64,000 nt of DNA from Cyanobacteria bacterium SZAS-4 (GCA_018266255.1 JAFEAT010000010.1:394842-458841), one strand, 5' to 3'. Shown: positions 8,122 to 56,399, numbered from the stretch's first letter. Program-made: numbers and translations. The notes: generated by a model from the sequence alone, not told the origin.

Positions 8122-9303
8122 ATGAAAAACCTATCAATCGCATTTTTGACTGTGTTGCTGTTCAGTTCGGTGTCCGCCACCGCCGCTGAAAAGCCCCATC
8201 CGCCATCGCTTCTCATCGAGACCACTCGTAACGCCGATAAGCAGGCGATCGATGATTTTCTGACTGAGAATGGGTGCACGATACTGGGTGAAGCGCATTC
8301 AACTAAGTGTGGCATACACGTAATTGAGGTCGCTCCCAAAAGTGGCGACCTGACTCAGTTTAAGCAGAAAATCGAAAAAGTAAAAAATGCGAATATAAAA
8401 AGCATCGAAATCACTCCCTTAACGCGCTTGGAAGCGTTGCCTAATGATCCAGACAGTCCTCAGCAATACGCGCTGGGCATCATGAATTTCAGCAGTGCCC
8501 TCAATATCATTGGAAATCACCAGAAAATAACACCACGTTTCACTCTTGTGGATACTGGCGTGCAGCCCGTGTCAGGCGAGCTTACTCATGTCTCTCAGTA
8601 TAATTTCGTCAACGGCGCAAACGGCACGCCTGAATCTCCATTTGACAGCGGAATTCATGGTACTGCTGTGGCTGGAACTGGAGCTGCCACCACGGATAAT
8701 CACAATCTTATAGCTGGGGTCGGAACGAGTAATTTGCCTGTTCGTATTACTTCTTGCAGAATCAGCAATGACGGTGGGACTATCAATACTCTCGATGTGA
8801 TTCAAGCTTTACTCTGGTGTGTTGACAATCAAGCGCTGCGAGGCGGACCTGGACCAATCAATGTCAGTCTTGGTAGTACTGCACCTCCTACCTACAACGG
8901 CTCTTCTGTTGTACAGGACATCGCTCATGAATTGCGCAATCAAGGTGACTTGTTAGTGCTCGCCGCAGGTAACAATGCGATGCTTGACCCAAGTCCAGAG
9001 CTTTATGCTCGTCGAGTTGCCGGGACTGATCAAAACAATCAGCTTGCGTCGTTCTCTGTATTTGGTCCGTTCCACGGTGCTGCGCCGGCTGTAAACATCA
9101 TCATTATTCCAAGTTTGGCGTTGGAAAGTGGTACTTCGCTGGCGGCGCCGTATTGGTCAGGCAGTATTGCGCTTCTGCAAAGTCTGAATCCAAGACTAAA
9201 TGCGGTGCAAGCAGACTCTATCATCTATAACCAGGCGAACGTGACCGGAGCCGACTGGCACATTCCCAACCTGTTCAAGGCTGTTAACAGCGCTCGATTC
9301 TGA
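8122..9303 (+). CDS. Secreted subtilisin-like serine peptidase (S8 family)
   Basis: 393 aa. Signal peptide MKNLSIAFLTVLLFSSVSATAAE. Catalytic contexts are LVDTGV (Asp), HGTAVAG (His), LAAGNN (oxyanion Asn) and SGTSLAAP (Ser). Confidence 0.85.
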   Translation: MKNLSIAFLTVLLFSSVSATAAEKPHPPSLLIETTRNADKQAIDDFLTENGCTILGEAHSTKCGIHVIEVAPKSGDLTQFKQKIEKVKNANIKSIEITPLTRLEALPNDPDSPQQYALGIMNFSSALNIIGNHQKITPRFTLVDTGVQPVSGELTHVSQYNFVNGANGTPESPFDSGIHGTAVAGTGAATTDNHNLIAGVGTSNLPVRITSCRISNDGGTINTLDVIQALLWCVDNQALRGGPGPINVSLGSTAPPTYNGSSVVQDIAHELRNQGDLLVLAAGNNAMLDPSPELYARRVAGTDQNNQLASFSVFGPFHGAAPAVNIIIIPSLALESGTSLAAPYWSGSIALLQSLNPRLNAVQADSIIYNQANVTGADWHIPNLFKAVNSARF

Positions 9304-9372
9304 TTCACGATTGTGCAAAAGTTTCGATCCTCAACCGAGACACATTCTGGTCAAGTATTCCGGAACGCTGTC

Positions 9373-9993
9373 ATGTGGCAGCGTTGGTGCCTGATCGCTT
9401 GTATTGCAGTTTGCCCCGGTCTGTGTGCGGGATCATCTGCGCGCAATGTTTCTTTGCCGTGGACGGTGACGATTACGACCGAAAGTTTGAAGCAATGCCT
9501 GGACTTTCCCAACTCACATATGAAGCCTTTCATAAAGGCTTCAGTTGATTTCGAGCAACCGATGGAGGCGGTTAGCACTCCTGATGATGATCTCGAAAAA
9601 GGACATGATCCAGTGCCAAACACGCACTACGAAGAGTTGTTTTTTGGCGGTTCACATCTGCTGGGGCTGCGACGGGCGCACGAGTTGAATGTAGAAGGAG
9701 GTGAAGCTGGTGTGATCAAAGTCGGTGACTTCGAACCCGACGCTCGCAGTGAAGAAGCTGCCGCTGCCTCCAGTGCGATCGCTCGCCTCTTTCTTGATCT
9801 TTATCGTCGAAGAGCTGCATTGAAGTATGTCGAAGTCTCGCCCGAGGGATTCGATTTCTTGGTGCAGGAGCTAAATAGATATGGGTTTCGACCAGCCTAC
9901 GTCACTCCAGAACGACCTATTACAGCGCTTTTCGTATTAAACGTCAGATCTAATCCTACTGGGAAAAACGCCGATCTTATTTATGGGCAATGA
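9373..9993 (+). CDS. Hypothetical secreted protein (maximal ORF starts at GTG 9313)
   Basis: Starting at ATG 9373 gives a signal-peptide-like N-terminus, MWQRWCLIACIAVCPGLCAGSS. It is packed tightly behind the S8 gene. I recognise no domain. Confidence 0.5.
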   Translation: MWQRWCLIACIAVCPGLCAGSSARNVSLPWTVTITTESLKQCLDFPNSHMKPFIKASVDFEQPMEAVSTPDDDLEKGHDPVPNTHYEELFFGGSHLLGLRRAHELNVEGGEAGVIKVGDFEPDARSEEAAAASSAIARLFLDLYRRRAALKYVEVSPEGFDFLVQELNRYGFRPAYVTPERPITALFVLNVRSNPTGKNADLIYGQ

Positions 9994-9996
9994 GTA

Positions 9997-10902
9997 TTGA
10001 GTAAGAGTAAATACCGATCGTCTTCAGGCAACATGCTCAGCATGGTCGTTTTGGTCGGCATGGTACTACTTCTGGTGTGCGGTTGTGGTTTCGTGGTTTC
10101 TATTCTTTTCACATCCCATCATCGCAATCAGATGAAAGCCGACGACCTGGCGCTGAGTCTGGCTCTGGGGTTGAATAAACATAATTGGGTCGGACAGATG
10201 AACAACCTGGTCGAATCAGCTCGAGAACTTGTCTTCACCTCTAGAGATGCGCATGAAGAAGTGCTTGCTGACTACCCGCGCTTGAGATCGCTATCGGAGA
10301 GGCTTATGAACGAAGCAAGAGAATCGGCCGCGTTTGTAGAGAGGGAGAGGATTTCACTCGGACGAGAACTCTGTAAATCGGCTCAACACAGTGCCGCAGT
10401 TACCAACGAGCAACGGCAGGCACAGCCTTTATTCAGTCTGCCGTGGCTTGAAACTGAGACTATATCGGTGAAAGCGTTAGAGGTCGGCAGAATTCGCAAC
10501 GTACAAAGCAGTGCGCATCTACCTCAGGCTTTGCCTAGTTTGAAAGATTATGATATGCGCAAGGGCATAGCAAACAAACAGTCGGAGCTTTACAACAGTT
10601 GTGATAAAGCGGCGCTACCCTCACCAGATGATGACTTGCTATTCGCTTTTTGTTCGCTTCCCGCTGCCGTCGAAAAATCCATTCCGTCAGCACGAATAAC
10701 CGGTAACGATGCTTTTGAGCCGACCGCTCTCATATTCGACGACGGAATGAATTATTCAGCCAATCTCAAATCATTGCCTTCCGCAGTTCGCCTAACGGCG
10801 GTGATGAACGTTCGAGGCACTTTGAATCGCACTGTAAAACCGGGTGAAGTAAAAATAGTTGTTTCCGCAGCTTCGCCGGGTTCAGAGCCGGACTTTCCTT
10901 AA
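9997..10902 (+). CDS. Hypothetical membrane-anchored protein
   Basis: 301 aa, starting 3 nt after the previous stop. One N-terminal hydrophobic helix, MLSMVVLVGMVLLLVCGCGFVVSILF. The start is uncertain (TTG 9997 or ATG 10033). Confidence 0.55.
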   Translation: MSKSKYRSSSGNMLSMVVLVGMVLLLVCGCGFVVSILFTSHHRNQMKADDLALSLALGLNKHNWVGQMNNLVESARELVFTSRDAHEEVLADYPRLRSLSERLMNEARESAAFVERERISLGRELCKSAQHSAAVTNEQRQAQPLFSLPWLETETISVKALEVGRIRNVQSSAHLPQALPSLKDYDMRKGIANKQSELYNSCDKAALPSPDDDLLFAFCSLPAAVEKSIPSARITGNDAFEPTALIFDDGMNYSANLKSLPSAVRLTAVMNVRGTLNRTVKPGEVKIVVSAASPGSEPDFP

Positions 10903-11685: not shown

Positions 11686-13341
11686 ATGGCAAGAACAGCA
11701 GATGCTCCACAGACTAAAGAAGAGAAGAAAGGTACCGATCGCGTTGAATCAGCTATTGCTAAAAGCCCCTCGGATCCAAGCCCATTCTTGAAAGAGTTGG
11801 ACTCTATTACTGGTCCTGCACAAGCGAAAGCTTTGTCTCAATTAGACAAAGATGGCTACGGAACACGCGCCGAAGGCCTTCAAGCTCAAAAAATTATGAG
11901 CGATTTGCACGGCGTGAAGAGTACATTTGGCTACGGTGAAATCACCAAAGACGATATCAAAAGTTATGGCGACAATGCTAAGAGCCCCGCTGAGAAAGCT
12001 TTAGCACAGAGACTGCAAGACCACTTCACTCAAATTTCTCAAGACGGCAAAGTGATCAGCCAGGCTGATATTACTAAATATTTGGGGCAAGAACAGAACA
12101 AGGCTGACATGCGTAACCTGCATGCCAAAGATCCTGCAACAGGCAAGACTCTTCTTGACTCCGTCAGCGACGGTAAGGGCGGTGTATCCGGCGATGCTTT
12201 AGACAAGAAACTTGCAGATCCAAATTTGACCGCTGCAGATAGAGCCAGCTTAGAGCGCTTGAACGCTGCTCGTGATAAGTCTACTTTCATGCGCACTCCG
12301 CAAGGCGATCTGACAGCCGATCAAGTCAAGAAAATGGACGAGAATGCTGGTCTGAAGCCCGAAGATATTAGCAAGCTGAAGAAGCAGGCCGAACCTCAAG
12401 GTGCTGACCAACAGGCGACGCAAGCAGCATTGACTGACTTGAACACAAAGCCAGGTGGCGGACAGAGCCTGTTGGATAAGATCGGTGATGGTAAAGGTGG
12501 AGTCGATGCCGCTAAGGTTCAAGACTTCTTGGCTCATCCAGAGCGCCATAACCTCACTCCAGAAAATGCGAAGACTCTTAAAACTCTCAACGACAAAATT
12601 GAGCAGAATCAGTTCAGCACCCCAGGCATGGATGGTGGCATCTCACCTCGCATGAATCTCAGTCAGGGTGATTTGCAAAAGATGGGTGCAGACGCTGGAG
12701 TCAACTACGACAAGATTGCTGCTAAACCACTGACTCCACCCGAGTCGGCAGACCAGAAAGGTCGTGAAGCACAGTTCCAGCACTTGTTCGAAAGCAAAAA
12801 TGGCAAGCCAAGTTTGTACGATCAGATGAAAGGACCAGATGGTGGCATCCCTGCTGCCAACCTGGACAAGGCTCTCGCCAATCCAAACTTGAGTCAAGCA
12901 GACCGTGCATCACTGGCTTATCTCAAAAACTTGCAGCCAGACGGTTACTTCAGCAAAGATAATTTCTCCAAAGAAGAAATCGCAGCCAAAGCGCGTGAGC
13001 ACAACATGAAGCCTGAGGCCATCAAGAAAGCAGGCATTGATGCACCACCTGTTAAGGCTCCTGAAGTGGCTCCAGCTGCAACTGGCGGAGAAATCAAACC
13101 AGAAGGTCATAAGGCACTCACTGTTCAATCGGGTCAAGGTTACTTCCATGTTGCAGAGCGTCTTCTCTCCGAAGCGCACAAAGGTGACAAGAAGTACGAA
13201 CCAAGTCAGAAAGAACTGAAGGAGTTGGTAACTCAACTGAAGCATGCAAACGGCAATCGTAAGTCGTTGAACAGCAAAGAAGAGCTCAAGATCGACGATG
13301 CAATCAGACACAACCCAGCACTGGCAGGATTGTTTGCCTAA
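11686..13341 (+). CDS. Hydrophilic repeat protein with three ~95-aa internal repeats and a LysM-like C-terminal module (maximal ORF from 11671)
   Basis: ATG 11686 is preceded by GAGGA (11673-11677). There is no signal peptide. Repeats carry ...LLDSVSDGKGGVSGDALDKKLADPNLTAADRASLERLN..., ...LLDKIGDGKGGVDAAKVQDFLAHPERHNLTPENAKTLKTLN... and ...LYDQMKGPDGGIPAANLDKALANPNLSQADRASLAYLKN.... I could assign no function. Confidence 0.75.
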   Translation: MARTADAPQTKEEKKGTDRVESAIAKSPSDPSPFLKELDSITGPAQAKALSQLDKDGYGTRAEGLQAQKIMSDLHGVKSTFGYGEITKDDIKSYGDNAKSPAEKALAQRLQDHFTQISQDGKVISQADITKYLGQEQNKADMRNLHAKDPATGKTLLDSVSDGKGGVSGDALDKKLADPNLTAADRASLERLNAARDKSTFMRTPQGDLTADQVKKMDENAGLKPEDISKLKKQAEPQGADQQATQAALTDLNTKPGGGQSLLDKIGDGKGGVDAAKVQDFLAHPERHNLTPENAKTLKTLNDKIEQNQFSTPGMDGGISPRMNLSQGDLQKMGADAGVNYDKIAAKPLTPPESADQKGREAQFQHLFESKNGKPSLYDQMKGPDGGIPAANLDKALANPNLSQADRASLAYLKNLQPDGYFSKDNFSKEEIAAKAREHNMKPEAIKKAGIDAPPVKAPEVAPAATGGEIKPEGHKALTVQSGQGYFHVAERLLSEAHKGDKKYEPSQKELKELVTQLKHANGNRKSLNSKEELKIDDAIRHNPALAGLFA

Positions 13342-13387
13342 ATAAAATGCGCAGGAGTTGTCTCGATTTTAATTTGAGGTTTCGGTA

Positions 13388-13795
13388 ATGAGTACACAAG
13401 CACATCGCATGCTAAACAAATTTCGTCACGTCAGTCAAAATTCGAGACCTCCTGTTGCCACGTCATCCGTGACTTATGCAGCAAACGGTACCGACCCGGA
13501 TGCACCACCAATCTCAGCAGCAAGCGGCACTCATCAGAATCAACTGAAATATGAGAGACCTGATTTGCCACCGACCGAATTGCACCCAATGTTCACCAAC
13601 CAGTCGCTCGAAGAGTTGCTTAACGGTATTTCGAACTTGTTATTGCCACCACTTGCGCTTGCAGATGGCGGCGATGCATTCGATGGAGATGCCACGAATG
13701 ACTGGTTCTATCCTGGTCGTAGTCTGAGAAACGGAATGTTGCCAGACGTTGATCTTGTAGAAATTCAAGTATTGGAAATTTCCCAACTGTCCTAA
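13388..13795 (+). CDS. Hypothetical protein
   Basis: 135 aa. GAGG lies 9 nt upstream of the ATG. It sits 46 nt downstream of the 556-aa gene on the same strand and is followed by a terminator. Confidence 0.5.
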   Translation: MSTQAHRMLNKFRHVSQNSRPPVATSSVTYAANGTDPDAPPISAASGTHQNQLKYERPDLPPTELHPMFTNQSLEELLNGISNLLLPPLALADGGDAFDGDATNDWFYPGRSLRNGMLPDVDLVEIQVLEISQLS

Positions 13796-13923
13796 TTTAC
13801 TAAAATCCACTTTTTCTACGGAGGAATTGTTTCGAGATCACGGCCACAAGACTCTAATGGGGGGCTAAATCGAAAAGAACTCAAACTCTCGACAAAATAA
13901 TTACTAACATCAGCTAAGTACTG

Positions 13924-13966
13924 TCTGCCGTTTATGCGTCTGAAGCGCACAAGCGGCAGATTTTTT
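13924..13966 (+). terminator. Rho-independent terminator
   Basis: Stem TCTGCCG (13924-13930) pairs with CGGCAGA (13954-13960). An inner TGCG/CGCA pair is present, followed by TTTTTT (13961-13966). Confidence 0.6.
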
Positions 13967-14204
13967 GTCCAGTTTCGTAATACTGAAGACCGGCAACGTC
14001 CCACGTGCTGGTCTTTTCCGCTTCTCCCGATTGTTGTCATGCCTACGACACAAGTTTTTTCGTATTGTCTTTCTGTGAGGCGAAACGCCTTATACCCCGC
14101 CCGCAGTTTCAACACACTTACCAATATTTGCGAAGGTCACTACAAATGGTGGCGCTACGTGGATCAACCGATCGTGCCCCTTCATCATTTGAGGATTTTA
14201 TAGA

Positions 14205-15110
14205 ATGGCTAAATCAGAAGTACCAACCAGCGATGCGATTGTTGATCACATCAAATCGAAAGATTCGAGCAGCAATCTCTCCGATATCGCAAGAGAAATC
14301 CACGACATGATGGATCACACTAAGCCTGGTGCATCCGCTGCGGCTATGGCTAAAATCAATGAAGCTTTGCATGCCCAGGGAATTCTGCCAGGCGTTGACA
14401 TCACTGGTGTGCAAGGTCAGGACTTCGTCGGAGTAGTCACCAGCGATAAAGGGGAAGGTAACGTAATTAGAGTTGATTCTACAGACATAAGTCACCGAGA
14501 ACGGGACCAAACTGTAAACAAGACTGAGATCAATGGAAGACAGGCAACCATTGCGGCAGATGGCTCAGGCTTTGTCACTGTAAAGCCAGGCGACAACCCA
14601 TCTTTCATTGCTCGCGACATGCTTAAGTCGCAGGGACTGGCAAATCCAACTGCAAATGATATCGCAATGTATGAGCTCAAGCTTGAGGCTCTCAATGGTA
14701 AAGACATAGCGCACAAATTGCATCCAGGTGACGTTCTGAAATTGCCACCGGCCCTTAAGGATGGAATTGACAGCCAGTTCTTTGGTGAACGCGCTCTCGA
14801 CACTCTAGGTGATACTAAAACACAGCTCAACAGCGATTTGGCAGCAGCCCAGGCGGCAATCCAAAAAACTGGTCACTGGAATTGGTTTGGGGCGCCTTAC
14901 AGCATAAACATGGATGAAATCACTAGAGATATGAACAAACCTGGTTTAACAGATCAAGAAAAACGCGGATACCAGTACTTGAAGGACCACTTTAGTGAAA
15001 TCGCAGTTGACGGCAACGTCTGGGCCGACAAGCTGACGGACTGGAATACAAAGAAAGTCCAGGATGCTGAGCTGGCCTTCTTTAAAAACACGAATGGTGG
15101 AATGATGTAG
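14205..15110 (+). CDS. Hydrophilic paralog-family protein with a LysM-like module
   Basis: 301 aa. GAGGA lies 9 nt before the ATG and there is no signal peptide. VTVKPGDNPSFIARDMLKSQGLANPTANDIAMYELKLEALNGKDIAHKLHPGDVLKLP has a LysM-like beta-alpha-alpha-beta pattern. LKDHFSEIAVDGNV matches LQDHFTQISQDGKV in the 556-aa protein. Confidence 0.7.
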   Translation: MAKSEVPTSDAIVDHIKSKDSSSNLSDIAREIHDMMDHTKPGASAAAMAKINEALHAQGILPGVDITGVQGQDFVGVVTSDKGEGNVIRVDSTDISHRERDQTVNKTEINGRQATIAADGSGFVTVKPGDNPSFIARDMLKSQGLANPTANDIAMYELKLEALNGKDIAHKLHPGDVLKLPPALKDGIDSQFFGERALDTLGDTKTQLNSDLAAAQAAIQKTGHWNWFGAPYSINMDEITRDMNKPGLTDQEKRGYQYLKDHFSEIAVDGNVWADKLTDWNTKKVQDAELAFFKNTNGGMM

Positions 15111-15159: not shown

Positions 15160-15189
15160 AAAGGTTCGCAGATTTTTTTGCGAACCTTT
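15160..15189. terminator. Bidirectional hairpin terminator between convergent genes
   Basis: AAAGGTTCGCA (15160-15170) pairs with TGCGAACCTTT (15179-15189) around a T-rich loop, flanked by A and T runs. Confidence 0.6.
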
Positions 15190-15235
15190 AGTTTACAAAG
15201 CGATCGAACTAAATTGCGCGGATATGGATTGGTGT

Positions 15236-27488: not shown

Positions 27489-27685
27489 CTGTTACAACGC
27501 CCTGGTCGACTTAAGGTACAAATTAGACCCAGTTGCCCGTTAATATCTAATTGTTCCCCCGAATTAACCCCCCGTAAGTCTAACGAGCGAAGCCGAAACA
27601 CTGGCTTGCTTGTGCAGCACTGGCATGGCATTTGTCGTTCACGTGCAACTGCGTTAGAACGCCGATTTTTATTGAGGTGTGTGGC

Positions 27686-30600
27686 GTGCCCCCCACTGAT
27701 AAACCCACAGATAAACCAGCTCCAGAAGCTCCGAGCTTTCCCACCGTTAAAGTTCTGGATGAAATGCAGAAGACTCAGCGCGACCAGACTTCAACTGGAT
27801 CGAGCAAAGAAGAGAAGGGAGCGGGCGAAGAATCGGTGGGGCAATTTAGATTGTTGCTCAATAGAGCTGACAACGGACTCCAGCTGCCTGACCTGAAACT
27901 TGTTCACGGAAAAAAGGAAGGCGGATTTGAGTTAGTAAATCTCAAAGCACCACCCAGAGAACAACCAAAGGCGGAGCCGGGACCAGAAATTCGCTCTGAG
28001 AATGGTCATGTCAGCCGCGTCAACACCGCCCACAACGGCTCTTTCGAAGTGTCCAGCGATGGACACATTCGTCACAAATACAACGGTCGCACTGAGACGA
28101 TCACAGGCAAGCTCGGCGCTGACGATAAGGGGAATGCCTATCTCTATCACGCTGACACGCAAGTCACAGAAGTCTTTAATGCCAACGGCACGACAAGCAA
28201 GCTTTACATGCGCGACTCGCAATACACACAGGAACCCACAATCGGTAGCTTCGATCGGCAAGATCTGCGAGGAGATTTACGACTAGAACTACGACGTGAG
28301 CAACGCCAGAACCCGTTGTTGTCTTATGCTGAAAAATTTGAATCAGTGCGAGAAGAGTCAGACGGTTCAAAAATCATTACCGACTCGAACGGTGAGCGCA
28401 AAGCCATCGAGCAGCAAAACGGCAACGTCTTGCTTTTCAAAGACGGTAAGCTCACTTCGATAACGACTATAGAAGGCACTCTCGAAACTCATGATGGTGG
28501 CAGAACATGGCGCTACGGTGAAACTCCACTTCTTGTGATCGGCGGAGACAACCCGCTCTTGAAACCACAAACTCACTGGCGCCCAGTGCAGGCGCACGTT
28601 GAAGCCGACATTAAGGGGAATGTCGACATAAGTTTTGATAATGGACACCAGCTCCGCCTCAATGCTGATGGCACATCTGAATGGCTGGATGTAAACGGAG
28701 TGCGATGCGTCAACAACTCTGGCGGCAAGCCTGTGCACAAAGAGTTTCCTAACGGAGCGGTAGAAAAATACGAGTACGATCGCGGTTATGAATTCAGAGG
28801 CAATAAAATTGTTGAAAAATTCGACCTGGTCAGCAAGACGCTCACTCCTGGTGAATCATCAGTAGCACTCGATTACAACGGTAATCCTGCTCGTGTCACT
28901 TATCCAAACGGGGAGTTCCGCGACCTTCAAAGCGATAGCAAAGGCAATGCCACCATTACTGATACCGATGGTCATAAGTACAAAGGCACTGTCGAAAAAG
29001 ACGGCACTTTGCATTTCTCGCTCACTCGCGAAAATCAGACTCTCGACTACACGATAAAGCCAGACGGCACCTATGTTGCCACAGGCAAACAGCAAGACGG
29101 GAAGCCTTTCGAGGTGAAAGGTCTGTTCGATAAACCAACCGAAATTACTAATGCTCGCGGCTTGACCCAAATAACATATGACAAAAAAGGAGATGTGCAG
29201 GACGTCACTTGCAACGGTGAAACGATTCGAGCAGGCATCGGACCGTTTGCCGTTCAGACCAATCGCAATGGAGATGTTGCCGTCGCAAACAAGACTGCCA
29301 GCTACATCTTCAAAAATGATGGTACTGGGAGCAGTAAAGGCATAGAGCGAAATTCTACTGTCGAGAAATTGAATGCCAGCGAAAGCCAGGAAAAGTTCTC
29401 AACTTTAGCCGATTTGAACAAGCGCCTTGCCATTCGCAACGAAGACAGTAAATTTGCTAAACCCTGGAACTGGACATCGAGCACAGTCGATGATCTTCGC
29501 GGAGTGATGTCGCCGTCTGTTGCGCTGTCATTGCGTTCAGCAGCAGATGGCATGCCACCGCGCCTGAGAGAGGAAACTCTCGCCCAGGAGCTTCAGTCGA
29601 TTCAGAGCGGTAACCCTGCTGAGCGCTTGAACAGCGTGCAGATGATCGGAGCGTTGGGTCACTACGCTGGCGAAGAGCACGTCAAGGCGCTTGCACAGTT
29701 CCAGGGCGAGACCGGCAAATACAAGTTAGTTGAATCGGGCATGACCGACAAACAGGCAGAGCAATTTCAGCGTCTAGCAGGTCAAGCTCTATTGCGCATT
29801 GCCGACTCCGATAAAGGTGTAAGCGTTTCGCTCGACCATGCCTCCGCTGTGTTGCGCAGTGATGCTCTAGTGCGTGTACCTGGCGATGACAGAGCAGCAG
29901 TTGCAGCCATCGATGCACTCAAGCAAAGCTGGCCGGGTTTGGAAAACGAGCAGACTCGCTCTGCTTTGGTCAGTTATGCAGAAGGAGACATCGTCGAGTT
30001 CAGCAAGAGTGCCGAAGCTCAAAATATAGCTTATGAAGTCGGCATGACACCACCGCTTGCCGAGACATTTCGCACAATGGGAGTGCCAGGCAGCGCTGAG
30101 GAGTTGATGGAAAAGGCACAACAGGCATCACAAAACTACGGCAAAGCCACAGTGGAAAATGTGCTGAGCAATGTCGCTCGCATCAATTCACTAACGCCTG
30201 CGTTGAGACAGGAACTTACCGGTGCCGCCCACGAGTTGAATCCGCTGCAAGTAGTTGGTCAGCTGGAAACCAAAGGCATCGATAACAGCACGCCAACTGG
30301 AAAAGCCCTTCTGTCGAACATGAACGAGTGGCTGACAGCGAAAGAAAAAAGTATCAGCGACAGCATGCGATCGACTGAAAGCGATCTCAGGCTCGAGCAG
30401 TCAGAGTTGAAACGTACATTGAAAGACCTCGACCATCACACAAAAGAAAACGCAGTCTCTCTGTGGCAGAGACTGAAGTACTGTGCCACTTTCACCGGTG
30501 ACATCGACAAATTCGCATCAGAGCAAAGCAAGTTCTGCGCTCAAATTCCAAAACATCAAGCAGATCGGCAGCAGACCATGCAGCAGATGAGCGCGCTGGT

Positions 30601-33334
30601 AATGGACCGTGAGTCCTTAAAACTGGCCGAGCGTGTCGGTTATCAATTCGAATCAACCTACAGAGACGAAAAGCTCGCCGACATGCAAGCACTGGCAGTG
30701 GTGGCAGATACACCCAAGCAAGTATTGCACGACATCGGCAAATCTGTCCTCACGAGTGCAGAGGAATCAATGGCTCGCTTGCATGAAGTTCACAACGCGC
30801 AACTCTCGTCGATACCGACATTCAACCCCAAAGACTTTAACAGCAGTTTGGATTTCATCGCCGGCCTGCATTCGGAAAATGCAGAAGGTCTTCGCCAGTC
30901 TGATCGAACAGCTTTGCAGAAGCTCGCTCTGGACGCAATCGACGCAGATCCGACGATGAAAAAATTCCAGTTCGCTGCTGCTCAAATTGCCGAGCACGGT
31001 TCGACTTTCCACTCTCTTTTTGAAACAGGATTGGGCGGCACTCGCTATGAAGATTTCGTCAAACTGGCTAAGAAGGAGGCCGGTGCCATCGATAGTGCAC
31101 TGAATTCCATCACGGCCGAAGACATACGAGTGATGAACAATCACATTCAAGACATCGATAAGGCGCTGGCGAAAATGGATCCCAATGCCGAGCCTGAAGC
31201 ATTCAAAGCTTTGCAAGATAAGGCAGAAGCCTTACACAAGATGCTCGAAATCGTCGATCCAAATTCCAGGCAGAACAATCAGCTCAAAGACGCTCTTAAC
31301 ACAGTGCTTCGTTCTGACAAATTCGATGAGAGCACATTTTCTAACTGGATAGTAAAAGATGGACCCGTTGTCTTGGCCTCAGTTGCGGCAGCAACGGCAG
31401 TAATTGTTGCCACCGCCGGCACTGGCGCTCCTGTAGCGCTGACAATCTTTGGAATGCTGGCCGCACCAGCCGCTGGTATGGCTGCTGCAGAGGTTGTTCA
31501 GGATATTGAATATGGACTGGGCGCAAGAAAGGACAGTGGTCTTGCTCTTGATTGGGCTAGAGGCAAGGAAGTTTACGATAATGAGACAGGCAAATTCCGC
31601 CAAACAGAATTCATAAATGATGTCGCGGCTACCTATGGCAAACAGTACGCTCGAGATCTGGCAATCACAGTCGCCACCTTAGGACTCGGGAAAGGGCTGT
31701 CCGCCGCGGTAAACTCGACCGGTGGTCCGCAAGCGTTGACCAGACTGCTGGCGGCTAATCGCACAGCCTTGTCTCGCACCGCCACAGCAATGGAAGAAAT
31801 TGAGTCTGCTGTGAGCAAGCAAGTCGTTAAGCAATCTTTCGCTCGCGAGTTCAGCAGACAATTTTTGCAAATGTCAGGCATGGGGGCAACCCAAGCTCTC
31901 GGCGAAGACTCGTTGAATTCTTTGTTGAAAGGCGAGAGTCAAATTCTTATTCCAGTTTTGGTCGGCACGTTATTGACTGCAGCGCACGGAGTGAACTTCC
32001 ACCCAAATGCACGCAACACGCGTGTCAAAGTCGACATGGACCCAAGTGCACCAGAGTTTGCCAACTTTAAGGAGTTTGTCAAACAGCATCAGGAAAACTT
32101 GCGCAGAGATGGAAATGTCGTGGAGCCGCTGGGAAACGGTAGTTACAAGGTCAAGCAATGGAACGGCAAAGAAGTTACATTCGAGCTATCTGAGAACGTA
32201 GCCAGAGCGTTGACTCATTTTGAAAACGCTCAGTCCCTCGATCTTCAACTGAACGAAACATTTGCACGAGCAAAAGTTGTGGACTCGACAGGCGTCGTTT
32301 CGGGCAATGGCACAGTTGAAGTATTTGGCAATTCAAACGTTGAATTGTCTGCTCCTGCCGGTCAGACTCTTAGAGTTGTGGTTCAAGAAGGAACACCTCA
32401 GCTCCGCGTTGCCGAGGGCAACCAGGGGCGGATCGAGTTTGTCAATCACACTACAAACAAGACCCTCAGCGATCAATTCAAAGATGCCGCAGGTAATCCG
32501 GCTAAAAATGTGCATGTGCTTAGTCCGCTGACTGAGATTCTAACGCCGAAGCAAATCGAACGCGTTCTCGAAGTGCAGGAACTACAAGATGCTCTTCCGA
32601 AAGGAAAATTGTCAGAACACCTCAATGCGAATATTGAGGCTCTGCCTGAATCTCAGAGAGCCGAGGCGATCGCGCTGCGCGACGCAGCAAAGGTCAAATT
32701 TGACGAAATTGTTGAAAAAGTCTATGGCGACGGTGCAGCCAAGAAAGAGAAGATTCTGCACATTGTAGTCGGACCGCCCGGTGCCGGTAAGTCGAGCATT
32801 CTCGTCGATCCGCTGTCTAAAAAGCACGGTGCATTTGTAGTGGACTCCGATCATATCAAGCCGCTTCTCGATGGTTACGAGAAAGGTCTTGGTACAAATG
32901 CTGTTCACGCTGATTCCGCTTACATCGGAAACCTCGTTTTGGACAAAGCATTTGCTAATGGTGACAACATTGTCTATCCACAACTTGGGCGTACCAAAGC
33001 CAACTTGGAGGCGCTAATTGCGCGCGCCAAAGAGAAAGGCTATAAGATCGGTCTCCATCTCGCGGATCTTCCACCTGATGAATCGGCACGGAGAGTCTTC
33101 AACCGCAGTGAGCAGGCCCCTGATGCGCGTGGTATCAGGCAGATGGTCGATCCAGAATTTGCTCTCACCACTGTCGGACGCAATCCTGCGCTAGTGTTTG
33201 AGGAAACGATCGCCAAGCCGGAAATGGTCGATGAGTATTCTCACTATGACACCAACGTGCCATATGAACAGAAAGCGAAGTTGGTCAAATCCTCCCACAC
33301 GCCACCATGGACGCCACCAACAAAGAACCCTTGA
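27686..33334 (+). CDS. Giant modular protein ending in a zeta-toxin-like P-loop kinase domain (maximal ORF 27632-33334, 1,900 aa)
   Basis: Single uninterrupted 5.7-kb ORF. GTG 27686 is preceded by GAGG (27674-27677). The N-terminus is Pro-rich and signal-less, followed by YD-like beta repeats (e.g. ALDYNGNPARVTYPNGEF) and a long helical region. Hydrophobic segments lie at 31367-31489, 31658-31712 and 31940-31990. The C-terminal domain has Walker A GPPGAGKS (32771-32794) and VVDSDH 18-20 residues after the Walker Lys (32843-32851). Confidence 0.8.
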   Translation: MPPTDKPTDKPAPEAPSFPTVKVLDEMQKTQRDQTSTGSSKEEKGAGEESVGQFRLLLNRADNGLQLPDLKLVHGKKEGGFELVNLKAPPREQPKAEPGPEIRSENGHVSRVNTAHNGSFEVSSDGHIRHKYNGRTETITGKLGADDKGNAYLYHADTQVTEVFNANGTTSKLYMRDSQYTQEPTIGSFDRQDLRGDLRLELRREQRQNPLLSYAEKFESVREESDGSKIITDSNGERKAIEQQNGNVLLFKDGKLTSITTIEGTLETHDGGRTWRYGETPLLVIGGDNPLLKPQTHWRPVQAHVEADIKGNVDISFDNGHQLRLNADGTSEWLDVNGVRCVNNSGGKPVHKEFPNGAVEKYEYDRGYEFRGNKIVEKFDLVSKTLTPGESSVALDYNGNPARVTYPNGEFRDLQSDSKGNATITDTDGHKYKGTVEKDGTLHFSLTRENQTLDYTIKPDGTYVATGKQQDGKPFEVKGLFDKPTEITNARGLTQITYDKKGDVQDVTCNGETIRAGIGPFAVQTNRNGDVAVANKTASYIFKNDGTGSSKGIERNSTVEKLNASESQEKFSTLADLNKRLAIRNEDSKFAKPWNWTSSTVDDLRGVMSPSVALSLRSAADGMPPRLREETLAQELQSIQSGNPAERLNSVQMIGALGHYAGEEHVKALAQFQGETGKYKLVESGMTDKQAEQFQRLAGQALLRIADSDKGVSVSLDHASAVLRSDALVRVPGDDRAAVAAIDALKQSWPGLENEQTRSALVSYAEGDIVEFSKSAEAQNIAYEVGMTPPLAETFRTMGVPGSAEELMEKAQQASQNYGKATVENVLSNVARINSLTPALRQELTGAAHELNPLQVVGQLETKGIDNSTPTGKALLSNMNEWLTAKEKSISDSMRSTESDLRLEQSELKRTLKDLDHHTKENAVSLWQRLKYCATFTGDIDKFASEQSKFCAQIPKHQADRQQTMQQMSALVMDRESLKLAERVGYQFESTYRDEKLADMQALAVVADTPKQVLHDIGKSVLTSAEESMARLHEVHNAQLSSIPTFNPKDFNSSLDFIAGLHSENAEGLRQSDRTALQKLALDAIDADPTMKKFQFAAAQIAEHGSTFHSLFETGLGGTRYEDFVKLAKKEAGAIDSALNSITAEDIRVMNNHIQDIDKALAKMDPNAEPEAFKALQDKAEALHKMLEIVDPNSRQNNQLKDALNTVLRSDKFDESTFSNWIVKDGPVVLASVAAATAVIVATAGTGAPVALTIFGMLAAPAAGMAAAEVVQDIEYGLGARKDSGLALDWARGKEVYDNETGKFRQTEFINDVAATYGKQYARDLAITVATLGLGKGLSAAVNSTGGPQALTRLLAANRTALSRTATAMEEIESAVSKQVVKQSFAREFSRQFLQMSGMGATQALGEDSLNSLLKGESQILIPVLVGTLLTAAHGVNFHPNARNTRVKVDMDPSAPEFANFKEFVKQHQENLRRDGNVVEPLGNGSYKVKQWNGKEVTFELSENVARALTHFENAQSLDLQLNETFARAKVVDSTGVVSGNGTVEVFGNSNVELSAPAGQTLRVVVQEGTPQLRVAEGNQGRIEFVNHTTNKTLSDQFKDAAGNPAKNVHVLSPLTEILTPKQIERVLEVQELQDALPKGKLSEHLNANIEALPESQRAEAIALRDAAKVKFDEIVEKVYGDGAAKKEKILHIVVGPPGAGKSSILVDPLSKKHGAFVVDSDHIKPLLDGYEKGLGTNAVHADSAYIGNLVLDKAFANGDNIVYPQLGRTKANLEALIARAKEKGYKIGLHLADLPPDESARRVFNRSEQAPDARGIRQMVDPEFALTTVGRNPALVFEETIAKPEMVDEYSHYDTNVPYEQKAKLVKSSHTPPWTPPTKNP

Positions 33335-55559: not shown

Positions 55560-56399
55560 ATGGCAAACAACGCGTGCGAGCAAGTGGCGGCTCAACCAGA
55601 GTGGTTGGCAAAACAGACAGCAGGGAAGAGCGAGGCAGATCAGAAAATTTGGAACTCTGCCTACGAATCTATTCATTCTGCCAATCACTATCAGCCAGGA
55701 GAGGGTCCCAATCAGGCACTCACGCGTTTGAAGAGCCAGGGACTATTGGCCGATGTCTCAATCTCGGACATTAATAAGGAAGCGCATCGACTGGAGATGC
55801 AGCAGGGTAAAGACGGTCAGCCGAAGCAACTCTTCACCACTAAAGATGAAGTGCTGGGGCCTCGCCGCGAGCACCATGAAATCGCTCGTTTCGTCGAGCG
55901 TCAAATCAAGACCGAGCAAGCAAATCGCCTCGCTCCGTCAACGGAAAACGTGCAGTCAGTCATGACTCCCGAGCGCACGGCGCAAATGAAAGCTGCTGGA
56001 CTCGAGACCGATCCGCAAGCATTGCACGACAAGATGGTTCGACGGATGACCGAAGATAAGGGCTTATCCAGTCGCCAGATGGAGCACATGAAGTCGTTCC
56101 CGGTCGGCGCACCTTACGTGGCTTCTGGCGCCATCACCGGCGCTCAGATGGATCATGTGATGAAAGAGCAAAAGGCTATGCGTGATACCAAGCGTGAAGA
56201 TAAAAACTTCAACGATTTGAAAGCTTGCAATCCTGAAGAGTATAAAAAGCAGTGGACGCAGTATCTGAAAGACACTGATGTTGGGCAGCTTTTGAGAGTG
56301 CATGCCAAGGAAGATCCGCAGCATTATAAGCTCTCGAAAATAGTTGCAGCCGATTCGATGATCTCAGCTCTCAAGCAGCTGGAAAAACAAAAAACTTAG
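55560..56399 (+). CDS. Hydrophilic paralog-family protein (shares the PGxxP...LKSQGL module with the 301-aa protein)
   Basis: ATG 55560 is preceded by GAGGA (maximal ORF from 55530). There is no signal peptide. YQPGEGPNQALTRLKSQGLLADVSISDINKEAHRLEMQQGKD aligns with VKPGDNPSFIARDMLKSQGLANPTANDIAMYELKLEALNGKD at 14205-15110. Confidence 0.7.
   Translation: MANNACEQVAAQPEWLAKQTAGKSEADQKIWNSAYESIHSANHYQPGEGPNQALTRLKSQGLLADVSISDINKEAHRLEMQQGKDGQPKQLFTTKDEVLGPRREHHEIARFVERQIKTEQANRLAPSTENVQSVMTPERTAQMKAAGLETDPQALHDKMVRRMTEDKGLSSRQMEHMKSFPVGAPYVASGAITGAQMDHVMKEQKAMRDTKREDKNFNDLKACNPEEYKKQWTQYLKDTDVGQLLRVHAKEDPQHYKLSKIVAADSMISALKQLEKQKT

What the first reader, a model, noticed from the sequence alone, without database searches (positions are those of the whole stretch)
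11686..15110. Dispersed paralog family of hydrophilic, signal-less proteins sharing PGxxP...LKSQGL and (Q/K)DHF(T/S)xIxxDG(K/N)V modules
Seen:
- The 301-aa protein (14205-15110) shares LKDHFSEIAVDGNV (14983-15021) with LQDHFTQISQDGKV in the 556-aa protein (12016-12054).
- It also shares VKPGDNPSFIARDMLKSQGLANPTANDI...GKD (about 14575-14700) with YQPGEGPNQALTRLKSQGLLADVSISDI...GKD in the 279-289-aa protein at 55560-56399 (about 55686-55810).
- The PGxxP...L module has a LysM-like beta-alpha-alpha-beta pattern.
- All three proteins begin MA(R/K/N)... with polar, disordered-looking N-termini. None has a Sec or Tat signal. Each has its own SD.

Inference: this is a lineage-specific family, possibly exported by a non-Sec route or acting on the cell wall via a LysM-like fold.
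Basis: partly seen in the sequence, partly recalled or inferred. Interest (0 to 1): 0.6.

Follow-up and report, generated by a model that had tools for sequence, protein, structure and literature searches.

The report
Signal-less LysM and EF-hand-like modular proteins
Two neighbouring genes of an uncultured non-photosynthetic cyanobacterium (Obscuribacterales) encode signal-less proteins built from a cell-wall-binding LysM module and degenerate EF-hand units, and one of them carries a lineage-specific N-terminal domain that elsewhere heads cell-wall hydrolases, RHS proteins, lipases and proteases, which hints at an unrecognised export route; the third protein in the finding is not shown to be related.

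Summary
All quoted motifs, starts and Shine-Dalgarno sites exist, and none of the three proteins has a signal peptide.

- **Pairwise similarity:** both BLAST matches (E 0.001 and 0.002) are at chance level for a 52-protein window.
- **556-aa and 301-aa proteins:** profile comparisons show they are related. They share an EF-hand-pair-derived unit (E 1.8e-6) and, more tentatively, a LysM domain with an insert (E 1.5e-4 and 4e-4).
- **279-aa protein (55560-56399):** it matches no LysM or EF-hand profile better than reversed-sequence controls. It models as a confident all-alpha fold with no structural relative.
- **LysM:** the assignment holds for the 301-aa protein (Pfam E 9e-6, above cut-off; beta-alpha-alpha-beta in the model).
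- **DHFxxIxxDGxV:** this is a degenerate EF-hand. A paralog in the same genome carries five canonical EF-hands plus the same LysM.

New result: residues 3-95 of the 301-aa protein form an unannotated domain. It occurs 17-19 times in this genome, gives 206 representatives worldwide, and was found almost only in this family. It is N-terminal in 90% of cases. It is fused to peptidoglycan hydrolases, RHS repeats, lipases, proteases or LysM, always without a signal peptide.

The most likely reading is Sec-independent, cell-wall-directed exported proteins. Export itself is inferred.

The parts
11686..13341 (+). P0001, a 551-aa signal-less protein. It has a conserved N-terminus, five EF-hand-derived units and a C-terminal LysM-like module.
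   Evidence: ORF and translation. SD GAGGAT 9 nt upstream. 21 ortholog clusters, all Melainabacteria/Obscuribacterales. Two copies per genome, found in full length only in the own genus.
11881..12117 (+). First EF-hand-pair-derived unit of P0001 (aa 66-144). It includes the DHF motif LQDHFTQISQDGKV at 12016-12054.
   Evidence: hhalign against the P0002 C-terminus gives E 1.8e-6, prob 90%. The unit's HMM hits the canonical EF-hand paralog C32_2202 at E 1.7e-8. Pfam EF-hand_like is weak, in 11 of 22 orthologs.
12133..13095 (+). Three further EF-hand-derived repeats of P0001 (aa 150-470): a DG(K/x)GG(V/I) loop followed by a (L)(S/T)xxDRASL helix.
   Evidence: The C32 EF-hand repeat profile aligns in register at 161-198, 260-306 and 382-415 (E 0.004-0.013). 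The P0002 C-terminal profile hits 387-425 at E 8.7e-6.
13111..13308 (+). LysM-like C-terminal module of P0001 (aa 476-541), with the same inter-helix insert as P0002.
   Evidence: hhalign gives E 1.5e-4 (60 columns) against the P0002 LysM profile and E 4e-4 (57 columns) against the genome LysM-insert profile; the reversed control gives 0.2. There is no Pfam hit and no structure model, so this is tentative.
13388..13795 (+). Conserved 135-aa ORF of unknown function, probably co-transcribed with P0001.
   Evidence: 59% identity to the syntenic 139-aa gene of a related genome. No Pfam hit. It is followed by the terminator.
13923..13967 (+). Intrinsic terminator hairpin plus U-run. It separates the P0001/135-aa unit from P0002.
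   Evidence: RNA fold -24.1 kcal/mol, z -4.3, none of 200 shuffles as stable.
14205..15110 (+). P0002, a 301-aa signal-less protein: N-terminal family domain, then LysM, then an EF-hand-pair-like C-terminus.
14211..14489 (+). N-terminal domain of P0002 (aa 3-95): three helices, the signature ALHAQGILPGVDITG, then beta strands. It belongs to a lineage-specific N-terminal domain family.
   Evidence: An iterated HMM converges on 17 genome proteins; P0002 scores E 7.6e-23. Present in 34 of 61 genomes of the order and 1 of 200 elsewhere in the phylum sample. 206 representatives in 1.84e9. No Pfam or NCBIfam model covers it.
14556..14762 (+). LysM domain of P0002 (aa 118-186), with about 15 extra residues between and within the two helices (LKSQGLANPTANDI).
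   Evidence: Pfam LysM E 9.3e-6, above the gathering score; residues 125-181 cover model positions 2-43. Found in 9 of 10 orthologs. AF2 shows E122-125, H132-142, H150-164, E177-180. 13 such domains occur in 12 genome proteins.
14817..15095 (+). EF-hand-pair-like C-terminal domain of P0002 (aa 205-297), containing LKDHFSEIAVDGNV.
   Evidence: AF2 pLDDT 81-87. The model shows helix-loop-helix twice, with short paired strands in the loops. Homologous to the P0001 unit. Canonical Ca ligands are missing, read directly from the sequence.
15160..15190 (.). Perfect hairpin (aaaggttcgc...gcgaaccttt) with a T-run between the convergent P0002 and response-regulator genes; a likely bidirectional terminator.
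   Evidence: Read directly from the sequence; not folded.
55560..56399 (+). P0003, a 279-aa signal-less conserved all-alpha protein. It is not demonstrably related to P0001 or P0002.
   Evidence: 16 ortholog clusters. AF2 pLDDT 90.3, pTM 0.79. No PDB or BFVD fold match. No profile link. Conserved synteny with an LRR protein and RNase III.

Best explanation
**What it is.**
- P0001 and P0002 are adjacent, separately transcribed genes. As full-length genes they were found only in the window's own genus.
- They encode hydrophilic proteins without Sec or Tat signals, assembled from shuffled modules.
- P0002 has three parts: (a) a roughly 90-aa N-terminal domain, (b) a LysM domain with an insert, and (c) a degenerate EF-hand pair.
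- P0001 has a conserved N-terminus, five EF-hand-derived units and a LysM-like end.
- The DHFxxIxxDGxV motif is the incoming helix and shortened loop of an EF-hand that has lost its calcium ligands.

**The N-terminal domain.**
- It defines a small family found almost only in this taxonomic family of the Obscuribacterales.
- The same domain, at the very N-terminus and with no signal peptide, precedes peptidoglycan hydrolases (SLT, lysozyme, M23, NlpC/P60, glucosaminidase), RHS repeats with protease heads, GDSL lipases, LysM and EF-hand modules.

**Proposed mechanism (inferred, not shown).**
- The N-terminal domain is a delivery or trafficking module for a Sec-independent route.
- LysM anchors the protein to peptidoglycan, either the cell's own or that of a neighbouring cell.
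- The EF-hand-derived units act as calcium-independent scaffold or interaction modules.
- P0002, and perhaps P0001, would be non-enzymatic cell-wall-binding members of an exported effector-like repertoire.

P0003 is a separate orphan protein.
For: Domain composition (shown):
- Pfam LysM in P0002 is above the cut-off and is found in 9 of 10 orthologs.
- The AF2 secondary structure fits beta-alpha-alpha-beta followed by an EF-hand-like pair.
- Profile-profile links between P0001 and P0002: E 1.8e-6, 8.7e-6 and 1.5e-4, and 4e-4.
- Paralog C32_2202 has five canonical EF-hands (Pfam E 6e-26) plus LysM (7.5e-9). It is hit by the P0001 unit HMM (1.7e-8) and the P0002 LysM HMM (1.7e-11).

N-terminal domain family (shown):
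- 17 proteins at convergence of the iterated HMM and 19 matches in the six-frame search.
- 133 of 147 representatives carry it within the first 30 residues.
- Heads seen in this genome: SLT, glucosaminidase, M23+LysM, CHAP (weak), GDSL, RHS with or without a calpain-type protease, HExxH.
- Heads among 149 global representatives: SLT 17, SLT_3 8, Phage_lysozyme2 7, RHS 9, LysM 6, GDSL 3.
- Distribution: 34 of 61 genomes of the order, 1 weak match in 200 elsewhere in the phylum sample.
- No hydrophobic N-terminus in any of 25 proteins checked.

Genes are real and conserved:
- Orthologs and synteny.
- SD sites and terminators.
Against: - Export is not shown. No TssC (T6SS), contractile sheath, WXG100 (T7SS), FlhA (T3SS/flagellum) or VirB4 (T4SS) was found in this 88%-complete genome. 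There is therefore no candidate machine.
- No conserved immunity-like or chaperone neighbour recurs at the N-domain loci.
- Cytoplasmic LysM proteins exist (E. coli Kbp/YgaU; from my own knowledge).
- P0001 lacks a detectable N-terminal family domain (hhalign prob 0.7-2%).
- Its LysM-like end has only moderate profile support and no Pfam hit.
- P0001 was not modelled.
- The P0002 model is of medium quality (pLDDT 72, pTM 0.35) and Foldseek returned no significant match.
Confidence: 0.55

Rival explanations
1. These are cytoplasmic proteins. The LysM and EF-hand-like modules bind an intracellular ligand or sense ions, as in the cytosolic LysM protein Kbp/YgaU. The N-terminal domain would be an oligomerisation, regulatory or auto-inhibitory module that keeps the fused hydrolases inactive until cell lysis or developmental autolysis.
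For: - No signal peptide.
- No specialised secretion system detected.
- The genes sit in a conserved core-chromosome neighbourhood (Suf operon, MarR, two-component system, pyruvate kinase) rather than in an island.
Against: - The same N-terminal domain heads many enzymes whose only known substrates lie outside the cytoplasmic membrane: SLT, lysozyme, M23, NlpC/P60, glucosaminidase.
- It also heads RHS-repeat proteins with protease ends, an architecture typical of exported toxins.
- P0002 orthologs diverge quickly (47-48% identity within the genus, against 73-78% for P0001).
Confidence: 0.22
2. One reading: the 556-aa, 301-aa and 279-aa proteins are three paralogs of one family. They share a LysM-like PGxxP...LKSQGL module and a DHF module.
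For: - BLASTP P0002-P0003 gives 43% identity over 42 aa, E 0.002.
- The two helices of P0003 predicted by AF2 (50-59, 68-82) fall exactly in register with the LysM helices of P0002 (132-142, 150-164). Isolated beta bridges at residues 43 and 97 flank them.
Against: - E 0.002 is what 1,326 window pairs yield by chance.
- LysM profiles (orthologs alone, or 13 genome domains) score P0003 no better than reversed sequences: E 0.11-0.19 against 0.08-0.2.
- Iterated HMMs never recruit P0003.
- No Pfam LysM in any of 16 orthologs.
- P0003 folds as one compact all-alpha domain.
- P0003 has no EF-hand-like unit.
Confidence: 0.08
3. The N-terminal domain family is of phage or tailocin origin. The domain would incorporate lysins and other cargo into a particle, and P0002 would be a particle-associated wall-binding protein.
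For: Phage_lysozyme2 (7), SLT (17) and LysM heads are common among virion-associated lysins.
Against: - No phage sheath gene in the genome.
- No phage genes around P0001/P0002; the locus is core-syntenic.
- RHS, calpain-type, GDSL and EF-hand heads are not typical virion proteins.
- The alignment was too divergent to scan viral contigs.
Confidence: 0.07

Closest known systems
LysM domain (Pfam PF01476), in the long-helix variant seen in Kbp/YgaU-type and phage P2 gpX-type proteins
   Same: P0002 residues 118-186 pass the Pfam gathering score. They carry the GD...IA...LN...PGD...LP signature and model as beta-alpha-alpha-beta.
   Different: - About 15 extra residues lengthen helix 1, the inter-helix loop and helix 2 (consensus LKxQxGxxPTNAEI). 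This form occurs 13 times in the genome.
- The protein has no signal peptide and no catalytic domain.
- Ligand binding is untested.
- The comparison with Kbp and gpX comes from my own knowledge and was not tested here.
EF-hand domain pair (Pfam PF13499 and relatives)
   Same: - Helix-loop-helix pairs with short paired strands in the loops, in the P0002 model.
- A homology chain leads to a same-genome paralog with five canonical EF-hands.
   Different: - The loops are one residue short and lack acidic ligands: P0001 S-Q-D-G-K-V-I-S-Q-A-D and P0002 A-V-D-G-N-V-W-A-D-K-L, against D-K-D-G-N-N-H-I-S-K-K-E in the paralog.
- Pfam EF-hand models do not match; only EF-hand_like at E 0.05.
- Calcium binding is therefore unlikely.
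N-terminal marker or trafficking domains of polymorphic toxins and effectors (MIX, FIX and RIX of T6SS effectors; LXG of T7SS toxins)
   Same: - One conserved domain at the extreme N-terminus.
- No signal peptide.
- Fused to many unrelated heads, including peptidoglycan hydrolases, lipases, proteases and RHS repeats.
- Multiple copies per genome.
   Different: - No sequence match to any Pfam, NCBIfam or PDB entry.
- None of the cognate machines (T6SS, T7SS) is detectable in the genome.
- No recurrent immunity gene.
- Many members, such as P0002, have no enzymatic head.
- This is a 'works like' analogy only, not a membership claim.

Membership tests
LysM (PF01476) | Match to the Pfam model above the gathering score | tested here: met
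   P0002: 25.9 bits against a cut-off of 20.9, E 9.3e-6, in 9 of 10 orthologs. P0001: no Pfam hit in 22 orthologs. P0003: none in 16 orthologs.
LysM (PF01476) | Beta-alpha-alpha-beta fold | tested here: met
   P0002 AF2 model: E122-125, H132-142, H150-164, E177-180, pLDDT 71-81. Foldseek gave no LysM hit for the whole chain. P0001 was not modelled. P0003 shows two helices in register, but only isolated bridges, inside an all-alpha domain: inconclusive.
LysM (PF01476) | Binding of GlcNAc-containing glycans (peptidoglycan, chitin) | not testable with these tools
   This needs a binding assay.
LysM, for the P0001 C-terminus (aa 476-541) | Profile-level homology to established LysM domains | tested here: inconclusive
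   hhalign gives E 1.5e-4 (prob 51%) and 4e-4 (prob 35%) over the full domain in register, against 0.2 for the reversed control. HMM searches do not recruit it.
EF-hand | Canonical 12-residue loop with oxygen ligands at positions 1, 3, 5 and 12 | tested here: not met
   Read from the sequence: the loops of P0001 and P0002 are shortened and lack the ligands. Paralog C32_2202 has them.
EF-hand | Match to Pfam EF-hand models | tested here: not met
   Only PF09279 EF-hand_like, at E 0.05 (best 0.011; 11 of 22 orthologs), below the cut-off. C32_2202 and C36_77401 match strongly.
EF-hand | Paired helix-loop-helix fold and homology to bona fide EF-hand proteins | tested here: met
   AF2 model of P0002 residues 195-297. 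The P0001 unit HMM hits C32_2202 at E 1.7e-8. Five in-register profile hits. Weak Foldseek hits to sorcin, CIB2 and axonemal EF-hand proteins, which are not significant.
Polymorphic toxin/effector with an N-terminal trafficking domain | Conserved domain at the extreme N-terminus joined to diverse C-terminal heads | tested here: met
   133 of 147 representatives start within 30 residues of the N-terminus. Heads are listed.
Polymorphic toxin/effector with an N-terminal trafficking domain | A cognate secretion apparatus encoded in the genome | tested here: not met
   No TssC, sheath, WXG100, FlhA or VirB4 in the own genome, which is 88% complete. TadG-like genes are ubiquitous in the order and not specific.
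Polymorphic toxin/effector with an N-terminal trafficking domain | An adjacent immunity gene | tested here: inconclusive
   No recurrent neighbour family across 20 loci. Immunity genes are diverse, so absence of recurrence does not exclude them.
Sec/Tat-exported protein | N-terminal hydrophobic signal peptide or twin-arginine motif | tested here: not met
   The maximum hydropathy window is <=0.74 in all 25 proteins checked, against 1.9-3.0 in the controls. No RR motif in the first 30 residues, read from the sequence.

The most novel reading that the evidence does not exclude
The roughly 90-aa N-terminal domain carried by P0002 marks the substrates of a so far undescribed Sec-independent export or delivery pathway of the Obscuribacteraceae, which are non-photosynthetic relatives of cyanobacteria. 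Its signature is three helices plus L(H/K)xxG(L/I)LPxLxI. It has no Pfam, NCBIfam or PDB counterpart. The pathway would carry a whole arsenal of wall hydrolases, RHS toxins, lipases, proteases and LysM/EF-hand binders. That would imply an antagonistic or predatory lifestyle in a lineage that lacks T3SS, T4SS, T6SS, T7SS and contractile injection systems.
Probability: 0.3. Interest if true: 0.8.

Novelty: new variant of a known kind. Interest (0 to 1): 0.5.

Why it matters
LysM and EF-hand are well-known modules, and in that respect P0001 and P0002 are ordinary building blocks in an unusual, signal-less, lineage-restricted arrangement.

The part that matters is the unannotated N-terminal domain.
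- It ties P0002 to about 200 representative proteins found almost only in the Obscuribacteraceae.
- In those proteins it heads enzymes that must act outside the cytoplasm, yet they have no signal peptide.
- The genome has no recognisable specialised secretion system.

If the domain is a delivery tag, it gives two things:
- a direct handle for finding a new export route, by phyletic profiling, pull-downs or reporter fusions;
- a way to list the secreted arsenal of an uncultured, ecologically widespread sister group of the photosynthetic cyanobacteria.

The work also shows how a plausible three-way 'family' seen by eye can be two real relatives plus one chance match.

Tried and rejected
1. P0003 as a LysM or EF-hand relative. 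Ortholog and paralog profiles, iterated HMMs and Pfam all failed.
2. P0003 or P0001 as carriers of the N-terminal family domain. There are only short matches: P0003, 20-32 columns, E 5e-4 to 1e-3, prob 22-32%; P0001, E 0.02-0.08, prob <=2%. These are suggestive but not accepted.
3. The 749-aa YD/papain and 1,900-aa proteins in the window as N-domain members. The HMM gives no hit.
4. Fold searches. P0002 against the PDB, and P0003 against the PDB and BFVD, gave no match with E < 0.3. No AlphaFold DB library was available.
5. PDB sequence searches with the profiles. They returned only coiled-coil or designed-helix noise.
6. Two-component systems as specific partners of N-domain genes. 5 of 20 loci have a kinase nearby, but the genome has 112 kinase and 69 regulator homologs, and the neighbours are not each other's closest paralogs. 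This is chance level.
7. TadE/TadG-vWA triplets next to two N-domain loci as the export machine. TadG-like genes are in 58 of 61 genomes of the order, whether or not the N-domain is present.
8. A remnant of the 131-aa gene that sits between the two genes in a relative. There is no trace in the window or the genome.
11. Literature search (Obscuribacter + secretion system) found nothing relevant.

Full report
**Setting.** The window is contig C1:394842-458841 of a 6.3-Mb, 48.7% GC, 88%-complete genome. The three proteins of the finding are:
- P0001 (11686-13341, 551 aa),
- P0002 (14205-15110, 301 aa),
- P0003 (55560-56399, 279 aa).

**Check of the observation.**
- All three proteins start MA(R/K/N). 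The starts are supported by GAGGAT 9 nt upstream and by ortholog alignments that begin at the same residue.
- None has a hydrophobic N-terminus. The maximum 15-residue hydropathy in the first 60 residues is <=0.53, against 1.9-3.0 for a subtilase, a 203-aa protein and a membrane protein of the same window.
- Pairwise BLASTP gives E 0.001 for P0001-P0002 (23 residues) and 0.002 for P0002-P0003 (42 residues, 43% identity). P0001-P0003 gives nothing.
- To judge chance I ran all 1,326 pairs of the 52 non-overlapping window proteins. On pairwise similarity alone, neither link is above chance.

**Profiles separate the two links.**
- Each protein has orthologs only in Melainabacteria/Obscuribacterales records: 10, 16 and 21 clusters. 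I aligned them as A1 (P0002), A2 (P0003) and A3 (P0001).
- A1 against A3 gives 72% probability, E 3.3e-5.
- With the C-terminal part of P0002 alone, this rises to 90%, E 1.8e-6 over 76 columns (P0002 214-290 with P0001 66-142). Further hits fall on the internal repeats of P0001 (387-425, E 8.7e-6; 166-192, E 1.4e-3).
- The HMM of that part finds P0001 and its paralog at E about 1e-6 among 24,533 genome ORFs.
- A second shared module appeared. The LysM segment of P0002 aligns with P0001 476-541 over the whole domain, including the same insert. E is 1.5e-4. Against a profile of 13 LysM domains of this genome E is 4e-4, and the reversed control gives 0.2.
- P0003 scores E 0.04-0.19 (prob <=1.3%) against the P0002 LysM and C-terminal profiles and the genome LysM profile. 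Its best match to the P0002 N-terminal part is E 0.019 (prob 2.4%). These values are no better than the reversed controls.
- No iterated HMM recruits P0003.

**What the modules are.**
- *LysM.* Pfam LysM matches P0002 at 125-181 (25.9 bits, cut-off 20.9) and 9 of 10 orthologs. The AF2 model (pLDDT 72) shows strand 122-125, helices 132-142 and 150-164, and strand 177-180. The domain is about 15 residues longer than the Pfam model. This long form (consensus LKxQxGxxPTNAEI between the helices) occurs 13 times in 12 proteins of the genome.
- *DHF module.* It is a degenerate EF-hand. Paralog C32_2202 (729 aa) has five canonical EF-hands, for example RFSQIDKDGNNHISKKEIETYV. Pfam gives EF-hand_7 at E 6e-26 and the same long LysM at E 7.5e-9.
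- C32_2202 is hit by the P0001 unit HMM (E 1.7e-8) and by the P0002 LysM HMM (E 1.7e-11).
- A profile of its repeats aligns in register with five units of P0001 (E 6e-4 to 0.013) and with P0002 (E 1.8e-3).
- In P0001 and P0002 the loop is one residue short and lacks the acidic ligands, so calcium binding is unlikely. This is read from the sequence and is an inference.
- In the P0002 model, residues 195-297 form two helix-loop-helix motifs whose loops pair through short strands, as in an EF-hand pair (pLDDT 81-87).

**P0003.**
- Its model is confident (pLDDT 90.3, pTM 0.79) and almost entirely helical.
- It has no significant match in the PDB or in viral predicted structures: best E 0.5-0.8, TM < 0.2.
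- Helices 50-59 and 68-82 fall exactly in the BLAST register with the two LysM helices of P0002, and isolated bridges lie at 43 and 97. A local LysM-like helix pair therefore cannot be excluded, but nothing statistical supports it.
- Its LKSQGLLADVSISDI stretch fits the signature of the N-terminal domain family better (hhalign E 5e-4 to 1e-3, 20-32 columns, prob 22-32%). That match is still too short to accept.
- P0003 sits in conserved synteny with an LRR protein, RNase III and the NADH dehydrogenase operon.

**The N-terminal domain of P0002.**
- An HMM of residues 1-117 of the P0002 family, iterated on the genome's ORFs, converges on 17 proteins (E < 1e-3). The domain lies at or near the first residue. 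A six-frame search counts 19 matches.
- Their tails in this genome are:
  - SLT (E 3e-9);
  - glucosaminidase (1e-6, just under the cut-off);
  - M23 plus LysM;
  - weak CHAP;
  - beta-helix plus GDSL lipase;
  - RHS repeats ending in a calpain-type protease, in HExxH motifs, or in an NlpC/P60-like end (the last two read from the sequence);
  - LysM;
  - EF-hand-like units.
- In 1.84 billion representative proteins, only 206 match at E <= 0.001.
- 133 of 147 carry the domain within the first 30 residues.
- Pfam tallies for 149 of them are SLT 17, SLT_3 8, Phage_lysozyme2 7, RHS 9, LysM 6, GDSL 3, EF-hand 2, calpain 2, and NlpC/P60, M23 and GH5 one each.
- No Pfam, NCBIfam or PDB entry covers the domain.
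- It is present in 34 of 61 genomes of the order: 33 of 57 in one family and 0 of 3 in the other. The window's genus has 12-19 copies; other genera have 0-8.
- Only 1 weak match was found in 200 other genomes of the phylum sample.
- None of the 25 proteins examined has a signal-peptide-like N-terminus.

**Genomic context.**
- In a related genome the order is: Suf operon, MarR, P0001 ortholog, 139-aa gene, 131-aa gene, P0002 ortholog, response regulator, kinase, YD-repeat protein, pyruvate kinase. This is a core neighbourhood.
- In the window, a subtilase and two further genes (8122-10902) are inserted before P0001. The 131-aa gene is missing without trace.
- P0001 and the conserved 135-aa ORF are followed by a strong terminator hairpin (13923-13967, -24.1 kcal/mol, z -4.3). 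P0002 is therefore a separate transcription unit, and it ends at a perfect hairpin at 15160-15190.
- Full-length P0001 (two copies per genome, 73-78% identity) and full-length P0002 (47-48% identity) were found only in the window's genus, where they are adjacent.
- The N-domain-plus-LysM architecture reaches two more genera.

**Mechanism.**
- Shown: the domain composition; the homology of P0001 and P0002; the existence, N-terminal position, taxonomic restriction and head repertoire of the N-terminal domain family; and the lack of Sec or Tat signals.
- Inferred: many heads act only on peptidoglycan or are typical exported toxin architectures, so the family is probably exported by a Sec-independent route, with the N-terminal domain as the delivery module.
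- On that reading, P0002 (and perhaps P0001, which may travel with it or use a diverged N-terminus) would be a non-enzymatic wall-binding member.
- Against this: the genome shows no TssC, contractile sheath, WXG100, FlhA or VirB4. No conserved partner gene recurs near the loci. Two-component systems and Tad-like genes nearby are explained by their abundance.
- The main rival is a cytoplasmic role, with the N-terminal domain as a regulatory or oligomerisation module.

**Limits.**
- Only two structure predictions were allowed, so P0001 was not modelled.
- No AlphaFold DB library was on hand.

**Verdict.**
- The LysM idea is right for P0002, tentative for P0001 and unsupported for P0003.
- The DHF motif is a decayed EF-hand.
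It is a lineage-specific N-terminal domain that links P0002 to a signal-less arsenal of wall hydrolases, RHS proteins, lipases and proteases.

Noticed in passing
window 13388-13795: A conserved 135-aa ORF with no Pfam hit lies 47 nt after P0001 and before a strong terminator. Its conserved core is LLPPLALADGGDAFDGDATNDWFYPGRSLRNG. A 59%-identical gene holds the same position in a related genome. It could be a partner (chaperone, immunity or adaptor) of P0001.
   Followed up: partly
window 13796-14204 versus L001:9349-9744: A related genome has an extra 131-aa gene between the 139-aa ORF and the P0002 ortholog. The window has about 400 nt of non-coding DNA there, and tblastn finds no remnant anywhere in the genome.
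   Followed up: yes
window 8122-10902: A signal-peptide subtilase (S8), a 226-aa ORF and a 301-aa membrane-anchored protein are inserted between MarR and P0001, compared with the synteny of the related genome. The N-terminus of the 301-aa protein resembles TadG-like pseudopilin N-termini by eye, but it has no Pfam hit.
   Followed up: partly
window 55560-56399: P0003 gives a very confident AF2 model (pLDDT 90, pTM 0.79) of a compact all-alpha domain. It has no match in the PDB or BFVD. It is a candidate new fold, conserved next to an LRR protein.
   Followed up: partly
own genome C32:2202-4391: A 729-aa protein has five canonical EF-hands, each followed by an LSxEDxxAL helix and an NDEWGxExxG motif. 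It also has a (PGDQK)n linker and a long-form LysM. It looks like the undecayed relative of P0001. The ORF runs into an N-gap of the assembly.
   Followed up: partly
own genome C41:267388-270222 and C5:346244-347353: Some N-domain proteins have histidine-rich stretches (HHHHHDG..., HGHHDQHG repeats) before or between N-domains. The C41 protein has two tandem N-domains, PITKPITNPPEN repeats, a beta-helix and a GDSL lipase.
   Followed up: no
own genome C5:353678-358000 and C16:57584-60419: Homologous three-gene sets (TadE-like, a TadG-like protein with a vWA domain, and a second TadE-like) lie next to two N-domain genes. TadG-like genes are present in 58 of 61 genomes of the order, in many copies, so there is no specific link.
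   Followed up: yes
window 18001-18039 (749-aa YD/papain protein): Its AGLPDLIIVNGEG stretch resembles the GLLPxLxIxG signature of the N-terminal domain. However, the N-domain HMM does not score this protein or the 1,900-aa protein at 27632-33334.
   Followed up: yes
window 15160-15190: A perfect 10-bp hairpin with A/T runs on both sides lies between the convergent P0002 and response-regulator genes. It is a likely bidirectional terminator.
   Followed up: no
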